Shown: piece after piece, positions 22,301 to 40,300 of the stretch
Layout: each line of letters opens with the position of its first letter
Position numbering within the stretch: the stretch's first letter is position 1
DNA from: the human T2T-CHM13v2.0 reference genome, Homo sapiens
DNA length: 64,000 nt
NCBI RefSeq assembly: GCF_009914755.1
Contig: NC_060938.1
Strand: one strand, 5' to 3'
Position numbers and translations under genes: made by a program
Notes under the pieces: generated by a model
What the model was told of the DNA's origin: nothing
Databases searched by the model: none
Seen by the model: only the letters and a program-made list of their open reading frames with translations

Positions 22301-25300
22301 GAGGCTGAGGCAGGAGAATCTCTTGGACCCGGGAGGCAGAGGTTACAGTGAGCCGAGATCACGCTATTGCACTCCAGCCTAGGCGACAGAGCAAAGCTGT
22401 TCCTCAAAAAAAAAAAAAAAAATACAGGCATCGGAGGAGGAGGATGCCTCCGCAGGATAGGGCCGGCCCCAGAAGGACTAGCAGGGAACTCTCTGGAGGG
22501 AGGCGAGGCAGCCCACCAGCACGTCCAAGCCATAGTGTGACCGGGGCTGGGCTAGGTCCTGGCCAGCAGCCAGGCGGGGGACGGCAGGGTCCCGGGAGGT
22601 GGCGCCTGCTCTGGCAAGCAGGCCTGAGCTGGACTGATGAAGCCTCTGTGTGGTCCCCATGCCATGAATGAGAGCCCCTCACCTCTTCCGCAGCGTGGAC
22701 TCACACACTTTGACCACACTGATGACCTCCTTCACAGTCCTCCTGAAGTCATGCATTCTGGCTGCAACCAGGAGCGCTGGAAGGCAACGAGACGGGCCTC
22801 GTCAACCACGGCTGGGAACCAGGGCAACATCTGTGGCGGCCCAGGACAACACTGCGGATCCCGGTCACGGAGATGATGGCCTGAGAAGACGTGTCTGTGC
22901 CAGGCAGTGAGACCCTCACTTGGCATGGCTACTCCTGAACGACATGACCCTCTCTATCTTATTGTGGGTGGCGGCTGCACCCATTCCATTTTCAAATCAA
23001 GGAAAATTAAAATGAAGGTTTCCGAGAGCTTCACGTAATCCCTCAAAGCAAACAAACTAACTCTAAGATGACTGTGCGGGAAACACAGCTTGTGATGGGA
23101 GCTGGGGATTCTGAGGATGCGGAGCCAGGCTGGGCAGGAAAGGGGCGAGGCCACAGCTGGCAGCTGACACAGGTTCACCAAGGCCACAGTGGGCCCAGAA
23201 CCTCCAGTGCAAACATGGAGATCATGTGTGCAGATGGAACGGCTTCTCAGGTGGACTGAATCCTGCAGCGCAGGGATGCCGGTACCTGGCCTGCCGGGTA
23301 GAGTGGACTCTGTGGGCACGAGGGTAAGGGCCCGGATGAGGAGTGAGGGCCCTGCCGACCTCGGGCTCCAATTCCGGAGTTGGGGTAGTTGACCAGGCCA
23401 CGGCCACATCCACCCACCAGCACCAAGGGCAAAGTGAGAGTCTGAGTGACAGCTGCGACCTGGGGGGTCACAGAGGTCCAACTAGAACAGTCGCCCAGCT
23501 GGGGGCGGGGGACAGCCTGGCAGCCCCGTGGCACCCTCAGGAGCAACAACCTAGCATCTCAGGAGAGAGAGGCCACACCACTGTCCGCGTAGTCGCCCAG
23601 CTGGGGGCGGGGGACAGCCTGGCAGCCCCGTGGCACCCTCAGGAGCAACAACCTAGCATCTCAGGAGAGAGAGGCCACACCACTGTCCGCGTAGTCGCCC
23701 AGCTGGGGGCGGGGGACAGCCTGGCAGCCCCGTGGCACCCTCAGGAGCAACAACCTAGCATCTCAGGAGAGAGAGGCCACACCACTGTCCGCGTAGTCGC
23801 CCAGCTGGGGGCGGGGGACAGCCTGGCAGCCCCGTGGCACCCTCAGGAGCAACAACCTAGCATCTCAGGAGAGAGAGGCCACACCACTGTCCGCGTAGTC
23901 GCCCAGCTGGGGGCGGGGGACAGCCTGGCAGCCCCGTGGCACCCTCAGGAGCAACAACCTAGCATCTCAGGAGAGAGAGGCCACACCACTGTCCGCGTAG
24001 TCGCCCAGCTGGGGGCGGGGGACAGCCTGGCAGCCCCGTGGCACCCTCAGGAGCAACAACCTAGCATCTCAGGAGAGAGAGGCCACACCACTGTCCGCGT
24101 AGTCGCCCAGCTGGGGGCGGGGGACAGCCTGGCAGCCCCGTGGCACCCTCAGGAGCAACAACCTAGCATCTCAGGAGAGAGAGGCCACACCACTGTCCGC
24201 GTAGTCGCCCAGCTGGGGGCGGGGGACAGCCTGGCAGCCCCGTGGCACCCTCAGGAGCAACAACCTAGCATCTCAGGAGAGAGAGGCCACACCACTGTCC
24301 GCGTAGTCGCCCAGCTGGGGGCGGGGGACAGCCTGGCAGCCCCGTGGCACCCTCAGGAGCAACAACCTAGCATCTCAGGAGAGAGAGGCCACACCACTGT
24401 CCGCGTAGTCGCCCAGCTGGGGGCGGGGGACAGCCTGGCAGCCCCGTGGCACCCTCAGGAGCAACAACCTAGCATCTCAGGAGAGAGAGGCCACACCACT
24501 GTCCGCGTAGTCGCCCAGCTGGGGGCGGGGGACAGCCTGGCAGCCCCGTGGCACCCTCAGGAGCAACAACCTAGCATCTCAGGAGAGAGAGGCCACACCA
24601 CTGTCCGCGTAGTCGCCCAGCTGGGGGCGGGGGACAGCCTGGCAGCCCCGTGGCACCCTCAGGAGCAACAACCTAGCATCTCAGGAGAGAGAGGCCACAC
24701 CACTGTCCGCGTAGTCGCCCAGCTGGGGGCGGGGGACAGCCTGGCAGCCCCGTGGCACCCTCAGGAGCAACAACCTAGCATCTCAGGAGAGAGAGGCCAC
24801 ACCACTGTCCGCGTAGTCGCCCAGCTGGGGGCGGGGGACAGCCTGGCAGCCCCGTGGCACCCTCAGGAGCAACAACCTAGCATCTCAGGAGAGAGAGGCC
24901 ACACCACTGTCCGCGTAGTCGCCCAGCTGGGGGCGGGGGACAGCCTGGCAGCCCCGTGGCACCCTCAGGAGCAACAACCTAGCATCTCAGAGAGAGAGGC
25001 CACACCACTGTCCGCGTAGTCGCCCAGCTGGGGGCGGGGGACAGCCTGGCAGCCCCGTGGCACCCTCAGGAGCAACAACCTAGCATCTCAGGAGAGAGAG
25101 GCCACACCACTGTCCGCGTAGTCGCCCAGCTGGGGGCGGGGGACAGCCTGGCAGCCCCGTGGCACCCTCAGGAGCAACAACCTAGCATCTCAGGAGAGAG
25201 AGGCCACACCACTGTCCGCGTAGTCGCCCAGCTGGGGGCGGGGGACAGCCTGGCAGCCCCGTGGCACCCTCAGGAGCAACAACCTAGCATCTCAGGAGAG

Positions 25301-37300: not shown

Positions 37301-40300
37301 CACCCTCAGGAGCAACAACCTAGCATCTCAGGAGAGAGAGGCCACACCACTGTCCGCGTAGTCGCCCAGCTGGGGGCGGGGGACAGCCTGGCAGCCCCGT
37401 GGCACCCTCAGGAGCAACAACCTAGCATCTCAGGAGAGAGAGGCCACACCACTGTCCGCGTAGTCGCCCAGCTGGGGGCGGGGGACAGCCTGGCAGCCCC
37501 GTGGCACCCTCAGGAGCAACAACCTAGCATCTCAGGAGAGAGAGGCCACACCACTGTCCGCGTAGTCGCCCAGCTGGGGGCGGGGGACAGCCTGGCAGCC
37601 CCGTGGCACCCTCAGGAGCAACAACCTAGCATCTCAGGAGAGAGAGGCCACACCACTGTCCGCGTAGTCGCCCAGCTGGGGGCGGGGGACAGCCTGGCAG
37701 CCCCGTGGCACCCTCAGGAGCAACAACCTAGCATCTCAGGAGAGAGAGGCCACACCACTGTCCGCGTAGTCGCCCAGCTGGGGGCGGGGGACAGCCTGGC
37801 AGCCCCGTGGCACCCTCAGGAGCAACAACCTAGCATCTCAGGAGAGAGAGGCCACACCACTGTCCGCGTAGTCGCCCAGCTGGGGGCGGGGGACAGCCTG
37901 GCAGCCCCGTGGCACCCTCAGGAGCAACAACCTAGCATCTCAGGAGAGAGAGGCCACACCACTGTCCGCGTAGTCGCCCAGCTGGGGGCGGGGGACAGCC
38001 TGGCAGCCCTGTGGCACCCTCAGGAGCAACAACCTAGCATCTCAGGAGAGAGAGGCCACACCACTGTCCGCGTAGTCGCCCAGCTGGGGGCGGGGGACAG
38101 CCTGACAGCCCTGTGGCACCCTCAGGAGCAACAACCTAGCATCTCAGGAGAGAGAGGCCACACCACTGTCCGCGTAGTCGCCCAGCTGGGGGCGGGGGAC
38201 AGCCTGGCAGCCCTGTGGCACCCTCAGGAGCAACAACCTAGCATCTCAGGAGAGAGAGGCCACACCACTGTCCGCGTAGTCGCCCAGCTGGGGGCGGGGG
38301 ACAGCCTGACAGCCCTGTGGCACCCTCAGGAGCAACAACCTAGCATCTCAGGAGAGAGAGGCCACACCACTGTCCGCGTAGTCGCCCAGCTGGGGGCGGG
38401 GGACAGCCTGACAGCCCTGTGGCACCCTCAGGAGCAACAACCTAGCATCTCAGGAGAGAGAGGCCACACCACTGTCCGCGTAGTCGCCCAGCTGGGGGCG
38501 GGGGACAGCCTGGCAGCCCTGTGGCACCCTCAGGAGCAACAACCTAGCATCTCAGGAGAGAGAGGCCACACCACTGTCCGCGTAGTCGCCCAGCTGGGGG
38601 CGGGGGACAGCCTGGCAGCCCTGTGGCACCCTCAGGAGCAACAACCTAGCATCTCAGGAGAGAGAGGCCACACCACTGTCCGCGTAGTCGCCCAGCTGGG
38701 GGCGGGGGACAGCCTGGCAGCCCTGTGGCACCCTCAGGAGCAACAACCTAGCATCTCAGGAGAGAGAGGCCACACCACTGTCCGCGTAGTCGCCCAGCTG
38801 GGGGCGGGGGACAGCCTGGCAGCCCTGTGGCACCCTCAGGAGCAACAACCTAGCATCTCAGGAGAGAGAGGCCACACCACTGTCCGCGTAGTCGCCCAGC
38901 TGGGGGCGGGGGACAGCCTGGCAGCCCTGTGGCACCCTCAGGAGCAACAACCTAGCATCTCAGGAGAGAGAGGCCACACCACTGTCCGCGTAGTCGCCCA
39001 GCTGGGGGCGGGGGACAGCCTGGCAGCCCTGTGGCACCCTCAGGAGCAACAACCTAGCATCTCAGGAGAGAGAGGCCACACCACTGTCCGCGTAGTCGCC
39101 CAGCTGGGGGCGGGGGACAGCCTGGCAGCCCTGTGGCACCCTCAGGAGCAACAACCTAGCATCTCAGGAGAGAGAGGCCACACCACTGTCCGCGTAGTCG
39201 CCCAGCTGGGGGCGGGGGACAGCCTGACAGCCCTGTGGCACCCTCAGGAGCAACAACCTAGCATCTCAGGAGAGAGAGGCCACACCACTGTCCGCGTAGT
39301 CGCCCAGCTGGGGGCGGGGGACAGCCTGGCAGCCCTGTGGCACCCTCAGGAGCAACAACCTAGCATCTCAGGAGAGAGAGGCCACACCACTGTCCGCGTA
39401 GTCGCCCAGCTGGGGGCGGGGGACAGCCTGGCAGCCCTGTGGCACCCTCAGGAGCAACAACCTAGCATCTCAGGAGAGAGAGGCCACACCACTGTCCGCG
39501 TAGTCGCCCAGCTGGGGGCGGGGGACAGCCTGACAGCCCTGTGGCACCCTCAGGAGCAACAACCTAGCATCTCAGGAGAGAGAGGCCACACCACTGTCCG
39601 CGTAGTCGCCCAGCTGGGGGCGGGGGACAGCCTGGCAGCCCTGTGGCACCCTCAGGAGCAACAACCTAGCATCTCAGGAGAGAGAGGCCACACCACTATC
39701 CGCGTAGTCGCCCAGCTGGGGGCGGGGGACAGCCTGGCAGCCCTGTGGCACCCTCAGGAGCAACAACCTAGCATCTCAGGAGAGAGAGGCCACACCACTG
39801 TCCGCGTCAGAAGCCAGGCCCCACGAGACCACGGGCAGGGATGCCCATGCAGCCGCACCCCAGAAGTAGGCAACCTGGGGTCAAGGCCGCTCTGCCCTGA
39901 GAGTTCTGCCCCTTATGCCAGGACACGCAGAGGCCAACGGGGCAGCCAGGAGGTCCTGGAGGGCTGAGGACCCCGGTGGGCCAGGCCAGAGTCAGCCCCG
40001 GGAGGCTGGAGGCAGCTCTCAGTGCTCTGCAAACATACGGCCCAGCCCACCAGCACTCAGGAGTCAGGAAAGTGTGAGGCCAGGACCCAGACCAGCATCC
40101 CCCAGGCAGGCAGGGCCCGCTGTACCTGCTCCGCAGAGGCCCGAGGGGCGCCGGCCTGTGTGCATCCAGTCCCGCTTCATCCTCTGTAGGAGCCTCAGGG
40201 CAGTCATGGACACCTCGTGGTTCTTCTCCCCGAATTCCAGCAGGTGCGCAAAGCGTGGAATATACAGGCACGGGTCTGCGGCAGACACAGCACCTCAGTG

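What the first reader, a model, noticed from the sequence alone, without database searches (positions are those of the whole stretch)
23489..39807. 16.3-kb, 160-copy, near-perfect 102-bp array filling 94% of BRF1 intron 6
Seen: array length 16319 bp = 160x102 - 1, i.e. a whole number of units with sharp edges; the intron (22777-40125) is 17349 bp. The unit is ~68% GC with 5 CpG. The first ~10.5 kb shows no substitution at all. Inference: very recent expansion or strong homogenisation, and likely large allelic length variation. An intron whose length is set almost entirely by a VNTR could tune BRF1 (Pol III initiation factor) elongation or splicing, or BTBD6 expression ~7.7 kb away.
Basis: partly seen in the sequence, partly recalled or inferred. 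Interest (0 to 1): 0.8.

Follow-up and report, generated by a model that had tools for sequence, protein, structure and literature searches.

The report
Known giant 102-bp VNTR in BRF1
A real, very uniform 16-kb block of 160 head-to-tail copies of a 102-base unit fills one intron of the human BRF1 gene; it is a length-variable minisatellite already listed in print, and no effect on gene activity has been shown.

Summary
Window 23489-39807 is one tandem array of 160 complete 102-bp units (TRF score 32391). It fills 94.06% of BRF1 intron 6.

Correction: the "160x102 - 1" length comes from three 1-bp indels in G runs, not from a cut unit. The first 10,497 bp has no substitution but has one 1-bp deletion.

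Only three sites vary. All 26 substituted units lie in units 103-160. The unit occurs nowhere else in CHM13. The flanks show no decayed copies.

No canonical G-quadruplex motif, GC skew, above-shuffle fold, Rfam family or tRNA was found.

The locus is already in print. PMC4079513 lists the same hg19 intron with 111 copies (11,322 bp, 91.7%). CHM13 therefore carries 49 more units, so length variation is shown.

The zero-substitution block implies expansion or homogenisation within about 0.4-0.7 My (mutation rates recalled).

A regulatory role is untested. Published BRF1/BTBD6 VNTR expression associations involve other, smaller arrays. One catalogue excludes arrays over 10 kb. The tables of another that should include it could not be opened.

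Verdict: an ordinary, already catalogued, single-locus subtelomeric minisatellite, most likely neutral.

The parts
23489..39807 (.). Tandem array of 160 units of 102 bp (157 x 102, 2 x 101, 1 x 103), 16,319 bp
   Evidence: TRF; anchored parse
23489..33985 (.). Substitution-free block: units 1-102 plus the first 94 bases of unit 103. It holds one 1-bp deletion at 24991.
   Evidence: coordinates derived from the unit starts
33892..39807 (.). Variant-bearing end, units 103-160. It holds all 26 substituted units: unit position 32 G>A in 8 units, position 39 C>T at a CpG in 20 units, position 95 G>A in 4 units. It also holds two of the three indels.
24991..24991 (.). 1-bp deletion (GG to G) in unit 15
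36057..36057 (.). 1-bp insertion (G5 to G6) in unit 124
36765..36765 (.). 1-bp deletion (G5 to G4) in unit 131
22777..40125 (-). BRF1 intron 6 (17,349 bp), with GT at 40125-40124 and AG at 22778-22777 on the - strand. Non-repeat part is 1,030 bp.
   Evidence: hub gene table
40126..40275 (-). BRF1 exon 6. The array ends 318 bp from its 5' splice site.
   Evidence: hub gene table
22683..22776 (-). BRF1 exon 7. The array starts 712 bp from the 3' splice site.
   Evidence: hub gene table

Best explanation
This is a single-locus, GC-rich, subtelomeric minisatellite (VNTR) lying wholly inside BRF1 intron 6. It has no sequence-encoded product.

It grows and shrinks in whole 102-bp units. The likely route is misaligned exchange or repair between sister chromatids or homologues, or replication slippage (inferred).

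The low-coordinate two thirds is a recent amplification of one unit type. The few older variant units are kept at the high-coordinate end, the side nearer exon 6.

The intron tolerates the array because it stays clear of both splice sites and carries no exon, polyadenylation signal or known RNA gene.

Any effect on BRF1 or BTBD6 is at most a by-product of copy number, for example the local CpG methylation load. It is not a selected function.
For: Shown:
- Perfect head-to-tail periodicity of 160 units.
- A 50-base piece of the unit, with up to 3 mismatches, occurs 159 times forward and 0 reverse in the whole 3.1-Gb assembly. It also occurs 159 times in the window. So this is one locus, not a dispersed repeat.
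- No unit-like sequence elsewhere in the window or in the flanks.
- The array lies 1,673,685 bp from the q end of the 101,161,492-bp chromosome.
- Only three substitution sites exist. All 26 substituted units lie within units 103-160.
- All four allele combinations occur for sites 32/39 and for sites 39/95. Variant units sit in adjacent pairs (DD, EE, BB in the unit map). This is what unit-wise duplication and exchange produce.
- hg19 has 111 copies against 160 here, with unchanged flanks.

Shown negatives:
- 0 canonical G-quadruplex motifs on either strand, GC skew -0.014, 0 AATAAA/ATTAAA.
- Fold z-scores +0.51 (DNA, + strand) and +0.47 (RNA, - strand) against shuffles.
- 0 Rfam matches at E up to 1 and 0 tRNAs.
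- No exon in the array in the hub's table of 21 transcripts.

Inferred: with zero substitutions in 10,403 bp, the 95% upper bound on the block's age is about 14,800 generations with a CpG-aware rate, or about 24,000 with a uniform rate. The mutation rates are recalled textbook values.
Against: Neutrality is not shown. No expression, methylation or population data for this array were available to me.

Each unit carries an exact GC box (GGGGCGGGG), an E-box (CAGCTG) and a 13-of-15 match to a recalled CTCF core. That gives 160 copies of potential factor sites and 780 CpGs.

The surrounding block shows strong VNTR-linked expression signals for BRF1 and BTBD6. Their causal variant is not established.

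The clustering P of 3.8e-14 overstates significance, because neighbouring units are not independent.

The dating assumes the assembly is right and uses recalled mutation rates.
Confidence: 0.72

Rival explanations
1. The array is a copy-number-dependent cis-regulatory element (an eVNTR or mVNTR). More units would add CpG methylation or GC-box and E-box sites and so shift BRF1 and/or BTBD6 expression.
For: There are 780 CpGs in the array, and one exact GC box plus one E-box per unit.

A preprint reports that VNTRs linked to methylation are more GC-rich than VNTRs overall, and that VNTRs linked to expression or methylation are enriched at annotated enhancers and silencers (10.1101/2020.12.16.423078, passages).

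The same preprint links a 72-mer VNTR in BRF1 (hg38 chr14:105,271,805-105,272,305, outside this window) with methylation over more than 80 kb. It also links it with BRF1 expression in thyroid and BTBD6 expression in esophagus muscularis.

Supplements of PMC10234305 list length or motif eQTLs for both genes at five other VNTRs across about 78 kb. This is compatible with one shared untyped causal variant.

That study kept only VNTRs of 100 bp to 10 kbp. The array's expected hg38 coordinates are absent from its tables. So the array was probably never tested there.
Against: No direct association for this array was seen in any text or table I could open.

The CpG observed/expected ratio of 0.43 is below the usual island threshold (the threshold is recalled).

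The motif matches are recalled consensus strings, not binding data.

Signals at neighbouring VNTRs are explained equally well by SNP haplotypes.
Confidence: 0.18
2. Intron length set by the array tunes BRF1 through transcription time or through splicing of exons 6-7.
For: The array is 94% of the intron and 14.6% of the gene span. The 49-unit allelic difference is 4.5% of the span.

In BRF1 sense, each unit has a pyrimidine tract followed by AG, and an AG|GT seven bases on. This is read directly from the reverse strand.
Against: At a recalled Pol II speed of 2-4 kb/min, the whole array adds only about 4-8 min. Steady-state output does not depend on transit time (established knowledge; inference).

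The array is 318 and 712 nt from the splice sites.

No annotated transcript uses an exon inside it (hub table).

The AG|GT is followed by a poor 5' splice-site context (inference; not scored).
Confidence: 0.05
3. The length or the uniformity of the array is an assembly artefact, through collapse, over-expansion or consensus smoothing.
For: A stretch of 10.4 kb of identical units is hard to anchor with reads.

The three 1-bp indels all lie in G runs. This is the class of difference most prone to long-read consensus error (established knowledge).
Against: An independent clone-based reference (hg19) holds the same array in the same intron with a whole number of units (111.0) and almost identical flanks.

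The variant units give an internally ordered map, not noise.

No reads were available to test this further.
Confidence: 0.04

Closest known systems
The same locus as listed in PMC4079513 ('Coherent Somatic Mutation in Autoimmune Disease', PLoS One 2014), Table 9 and the text on Figure 1
   Same: Same gene and intron (hg19 chr14:105695251-105707600). A single tandem repeat occupies more than 90% of the intron. A copy count of 111.0 for 11,322 bp implies the same 102-bp period. BRF1 is ranked tenth among genes with the longest internal tandem repeats.
   Different: CHM13 has 160 units, 49 more. Occupancy is 94.1% instead of 91.7%. That paper gives no unit map, no dating and no uniqueness test, and it discusses the locus only in an autoimmunity hypothesis.
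Classical GC-rich subtelomeric human minisatellites (MS32, MS1, CEB1, CEB25, HRAS1; names recalled; CEB1, CEB25 and HRAS1 appear in the PMC3486850 abstract listing)
   Same: Head-to-tail array, GC-rich, within 2 Mb of a chromosome end, length-polymorphic. Variant units are arranged with polarity toward one end.
   Different: The 102-bp unit is longer than the usual 10-60 bp. Only three variable sites exist. There is no canonical G-quadruplex motif, and no match better than 2 mismatches to the recalled PRDM9 13-mer.
Large intronic VNTRs linked to expression or methylation, for example the 72-mer in BRF1 (10.1101/2020.12.16.423078, Figure 2 legend)
   Same: Same gene, GC-rich, intronic, copy-number variable.
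   Different: That array is about 0.5 kb and lies about 31 kb away, outside the window (inferred from coordinates). It has shown associations. For the 102-mer I could see none.
Human-specific intronic VNTR expansions (catalogue of PMC8327921)
   Same: Kilobase-scale intronic array that looks recently expanded.
   Different: In the 3 supplementary files searched (one further file was not searchable), BRF1 appears only as a GWAS gene beside a NUDT14 VNTR, not as a listed human-specific VNTR. Ape status is untested here.
Macrosatellites (D4Z4, DXZ4; PMC5687341 listing)
   Same: Large polymorphic tandem arrays.
   Different: Their units are kilobases long and their arrays run to tens or hundreds of kb, often with transcribed units. 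Here the unit is 102 bp and nothing is encoded.

Membership tests
Minisatellite / VNTR | Head-to-tail tandem copies of one unit of about 10 bp or more, with a tract of at least 100 bp | tested here: met
   TRF period 102, 160 copies. It meets the catalogue definition quoted (motif at least 10 bp, tract at least 100 bp).
Minisatellite / VNTR | Copy number differs between haplotypes | tested here: met
   160 units here against 111 in hg19 (PMC4079513 Table 9). This rests on two haplotypes only.
Minisatellite / VNTR | Single locus rather than a dispersed or satellite family | tested here: met
   A 50-mer with up to 3 mismatches has 159 matches in the genome, equal to 159 in the window. The genome listing showed 100 of the 159 places, all in this array.
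Subtelomeric GC-rich hypervariable minisatellites | GC-rich and near a chromosome end | tested here: met
   GC 67.4% over the array. It lies 1.67 Mb from the q end.
Subtelomeric GC-rich hypervariable minisatellites | High germline mutation rate to new length alleles | not testable with these tools
   Needs pedigrees or sperm typing.
G-quadruplex-forming minisatellites (CEB1/CEB25 type) | Four G runs of at least 3 with short loops in each unit | tested here: not met
   0 matches with loops up to 7 or up to 12 on either strand.
CpG island | GC at least 50% and CpG observed/expected at least 0.6 (criteria recalled) | tested here: not met
   GC 67% but observed/expected 0.42-0.43.
Tandem RNA-gene cluster (snoRNA, miRNA, tRNA) | Each unit matches a known RNA family or folds better than chance | tested here: not met
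   Rfam gave 0 matches at E up to 1 over 23300-24400. ARAGORN found 0. Fold z-scores were +0.47 and +0.51.
Coding tandem repeat | Open frame with a start codon, an annotated exon and a domain match | tested here: not met
   One + strand frame is open. However, there is no ATG on the + strand in the array, and the frame is broken at the three indels. The hub table has no exon there. Pfam whole-protein scores come with 0 stretches passing on their own, to three unrelated families.
VNTR linked to expression or methylation (eVNTR / mVNTR) | Copy number associated with expression or methylation in a cohort | not testable with these tools
   Absent from the PMC10234305 tables, which exclude arrays over 10 kbp. 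The tables of the read-depth study could not be opened (bioRxiv supplements are closed).
Macrosatellite | Unit of about 1 kb or more | tested here: not met
   The unit is 102 bp.

The most novel reading that the evidence does not exclude
The copy number of this 102-bp array is the main causal variant behind the block-wide BRF1/BTBD6 expression and methylation signals. Published VNTR scans assign those signals to small neighbouring arrays: the 76-mer about 6 kb away, the 72-mer about 31 kb away, and others.

The array would act through copy-number-dependent CpG methylation or the dosage of GC-box and E-box sites. It would have escaped notice because arrays over 10 kb are dropped from pangenome VNTR catalogues.
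Probability: 0.12. Interest if true: 0.55.

Novelty: already known. Interest (0 to 1): 0.28.

Why it matters
BRF1 is an essential RNA polymerase III initiation factor. A 5-kb length difference between two reference haplotypes inside one of its introns is a large, easily missed variant.

If its length proved to drive the strong local expression signals for BRF1 and BTBD6, it would show that the largest VNTRs are a blind spot of current catalogues.

As it stands, the array is a clean textbook case of a recently amplified subtelomeric minisatellite with a polar unit map. It is useful as a marker and as a test case for long-read genotyping. It is not a new kind of element.

Tried and rejected
**Sequence tests that were negative**
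1. Origin from flanking sequence or a dispersed repeat. blastn-short of the unit against the window with the array masked gave only 10-15-bp chance matches with E at least 0.6. Flank alignments were no better than shuffles.
2. A whole-genome DNA search with two units was not scored, because there were too many candidates. It was replaced by a 50-base pattern search.
3. Hairpin or structured-RNA idea: fold z-scores were +0.51 and +0.47.
4. RNA gene cluster: Rfam 0 and tRNA 0.
5. G-quadruplex or R-loop idea: 0 canonical G4 and skew -0.014. The + strand does have two-tetrad GG patterns (615 overlapping starts), which I do not take as evidence.
6. PRDM9 13-mer (recalled): the best match has 2 mismatches on either strand.
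7. Coding repeat: rejected.

**Literature searches**
- The 9 listed papers for 'BRF1'+'VNTR', the 20 listed of 27 for 'BRF1'+'tandem repeat'+'intron', the 4 for 'BRF1'+'tandem repeat'+'long-read' and the 8 for 'BTBD6'+'tandem repeat' were examined by listing only. For PMC4079513, the preprint 10.1101/2020.12.16.423078 and PMC5007689 I also read the BRF1 passages. Only PMC4079513 and the preprint bear on the region. Only PMC4079513 names this array.
- Supplement searches for BRF1 and BTBD6 found 0 in PMC8275641 (6 files) and 0 in PMC11701250 (1 file).
- These searches cover main texts of the held library only. I do not claim that nothing else is in print.

**Papers not held:** 10.1016/j.ajhg.2021.03.016 and PMC8206010, and PMC6859368.

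**D14S1 lead**
- The idea was recalled: this array might be the historic hypervariable locus D14S1 (pAW101).
- The EcoRI fragment spanning the array is 22,347 bp here. The hg19 allele would give about 17.35 kb.
- Searches gave no usable mapping or restriction data.
- One reference title places D14S1 at 14q32.1-32.2 by in situ hybridisation.
- PMC1685957 and my guessed id for the 1980 paper are not held.
- The lead is left untested and I rate it unlikely.

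
Full report
**The observation**

Tandem Repeats Finder reports one array at window 23489-39807: period 102, 160.0 copies, 99% matches, score 32391. It is the only long array in the window.

Cutting the array at a 13-base anchor gives 160 complete units: 157 of 102 bp, two of 101 bp (units 15 and 131) and one of 103 bp (unit 124). The total is 16,319 bp.

It reflects three single-base indels, all in G runs, at window 24991, 36057 and 36765. It does not reflect a truncated end unit.

- 131 of 160 units are identical, and there are nine unit types.
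- The unit is 67.6% GC with 5 CpG. CpG observed/expected is 0.43.
- CAGCTG occurs in 160 of 160 units.
- The intron 22777-40125 is 17,349 bp with GT and AG ends on the minus strand. The array is 94.06% of it, leaving 1,030 bp of non-repeat intron.
- By the hub's exon list it is intron 6.
- BTBD6 begins 7,587 bp beyond the array.

**Internal anatomy**

Only three positions of the unit ever differ:
- position 32, G>A, in 8 units;
- position 39, C>T at a CpG, in 20 units;
- position 95, G>A, in 4 units.

All 26 substituted units lie in units 103-160. Units 1-102 have no substitution, and together with the first 94 bases of unit 103 this gives 10,497 bp. Placing 26 units at random would do this with P = 3.8e-14. 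That figure overstates the case, because neighbouring units are copies of one another.

All four allele combinations occur for sites 32/39 and for sites 39/95. Variant units often sit in adjacent pairs. This points to unit-wise duplication and exchange, or to recurrent CpG mutation.

The array edges are sharp. The 150-bp flanks align to the unit no better than shuffled flanks: 119 of 300 (left) and 127 of 300 (right) shuffles score at least as well.

**Uniqueness and place**

A 50-base piece of the unit, with up to three mismatches, is found 159 times forward and 0 reverse in the whole 3.1-Gb assembly. It is found 159 times in the window, between 23530 and 39747. The missing unit is the one with the deletion. 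Of the genome matches, 100 of 159 were listed, and all lie in this array.

With the array masked, the window holds only 10-15-base chance matches to the unit.

The contig is 101,161,492 bases long. The array therefore lies 1,673,685 bp from the q end.

**What it is not**

- There is no canonical G-quadruplex motif on either strand, and GC skew is -0.014. There is no polyadenylation hexamer.
- Three units fold no better than shuffles, as DNA (z = +0.51) or as BRF1-sense RNA (z = +0.47).
- Rfam gave no match at E up to 1 over 23300-24400. ARAGORN found no tRNA.
- It is not a coding repeat.
  - One plus-strand frame is open because 102 = 3 x 34. This gives stop-to-stop frames of 559, 3705, 271 and 1084 residues, broken at the three indels.
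  - The plus strand of the array has no ATG, and no exon is annotated there.
  - The Pfam whole-protein scores come with no stretch passing on its own, to unrelated families. That is a repeat artefact.
- Each unit does carry an exact GC box, an E-box and a 13-of-15 match to a CTCF core. These consensus strings are recalled from memory. They are leads, not evidence of binding.

**What is in print**

PMC4079513 (PLoS One 2014; I read the BRF1 passages and sections 8 and 17) lists BRF1 among introns more than 90% occupied by one tandem repeat. The entry is hg19 chr14:105695251-105707600, intron 12,350 bp, repeat 11,322 bp, occupancy 0.917, 111 copies. The paper ranks BRF1 tenth among genes with the longest internal repeats.

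The non-repeat intron is 1,028 bp there and 1,030 bp here. CHM13 therefore carries 4,997 bp more, which is 49 units less one base. The array is thus already catalogued, and its length polymorphism is shown for two haplotypes.

The preprint 10.1101/2020.12.16.423078 (passages only) shows a different array, a 72-mer at hg38 chr14:105,271,805-105,272,305. I infer that it lies about 31 kb beyond intron 6 and outside the window. It is associated with methylation over more than 80 kb, with BRF1 expression in thyroid and with BTBD6 expression in esophagus muscularis. The preprint's catalogue rule (hg19 Simple Repeats, motif at least 10 bp, tract at least 100 bp) should include the 102-mer.

Supplements of PMC10234305 were searched in 5 files. 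File 1 was not searchable and file 4 was cut when stored. They list eQTLs for BRF1 and BTBD6 at hg38 105214440, 105215525, 105223362, 105271803 and 105292751. At 105223362 both genes in thyroid have p about 2e-21 and beta -0.39. The 105271803 array has 19 rows in file 3.

Nothing appears at the array's expected coordinates. The methods keep only VNTRs of 100 bp to 10 kbp, so the 102-mer was most likely not tested.

In PMC8327921's supplements (3 files searched, one not searchable), BRF1 appears only as a GWAS gene beside a NUDT14 VNTR. PMC8275641 (6 files) and PMC11701250 (1 file) have no BRF1 or BTBD6 entry.

**Mechanism**

The best reading is a neutral, hypermutable, single-locus subtelomeric minisatellite. 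It changes by whole units through misaligned exchange or slippage (inferred). One unit type was recently amplified in the low-coordinate two thirds, and older variants are retained toward exon 6.

The 102 uniform units span 10,403 bp without a substitution. With recalled rates (1.2e-8 per site, 1.1e-7 per CpG site per generation), the 95% upper bound is about 14,800 generations (about 0.43 My). With a uniform rate it is about 24,000 generations (about 0.70 My).

The intron tolerates the array. It lies 318 nt from the 5' splice site and 712 nt from the 3' splice site.

The array is 14.6% of the gene span, and the allelic difference is 4.5%. At a recalled 2-4 kb/min, this amounts to minutes.

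A copy-number effect through methylation or site dosage remains possible and untested.

An assembly artefact is unlikely, because hg19 independently shows the same array. However, the three G-run indels deserve a check against reads.

**Verdict**

The array is real, striking in size and uniformity, but already known and of a familiar kind. The functional claim is open.

Noticed in passing
window 17226-17381: A 76-bp x 2.0 tandem repeat. By coordinate offset (inferred, about 65 bp slack) it matches hg38 chr14:105223362-105223519. In the PMC10234305 supplement that locus is a length eQTL for both BRF1 and BTBD6 in thyroid, with p about 2e-21 and beta -0.39 for each. It lies only about 6 kb from the big array.
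   Followed up: partly
window 8193-8423 and 9266-10017: A 25-bp-based array and a CA-rich complex array lie inside a long alternative BRF1 exon. Their units match the motif strings given for eMotif loci at hg38 105214440-105214559 (BRF1, thyroid) and 105215525-105216150 (BTBD6, thyroid) in the PMC10234305 supplement.
   Followed up: partly
window 75-812: A 43-bp x 17.2 tandem array with 92% matches lies downstream of the BRF1 3' end. It is another sign of the VNTR density of this subtelomeric stretch.
   Followed up: no
window 24983-36100, + strand: A stop-to-stop open frame of 3,705 residues runs through the array, antisense to BRF1. It arises only because the unit is 34 codons long with one stop-free frame. 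It has no ATG and no annotation, and its Pfam scores are repeat artefacts. Gene finders could miscall it.
   Followed up: yes
window 17886-40233: The EcoRI fragment spanning the array is 22,347 bp here and would be about 17.35 kb for the 111-unit hg19 allele. From memory, this size range and chromosome region resemble the historic hypervariable locus D14S1 (pAW101). No source I could open confirms or refutes identity. One reference title places D14S1 at 14q32.1-32.2.
   Followed up: partly
BRF1 gene span: The BRF1 span is 106,304 bp in the hg38 coordinates quoted in the PMC10234305 supplement and 111,894 bp in the hub's CHM13 table. Of the 5,590-bp difference, 4,997 bp is this one array. The gene ends may be defined differently in the two sources.
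   Followed up: no
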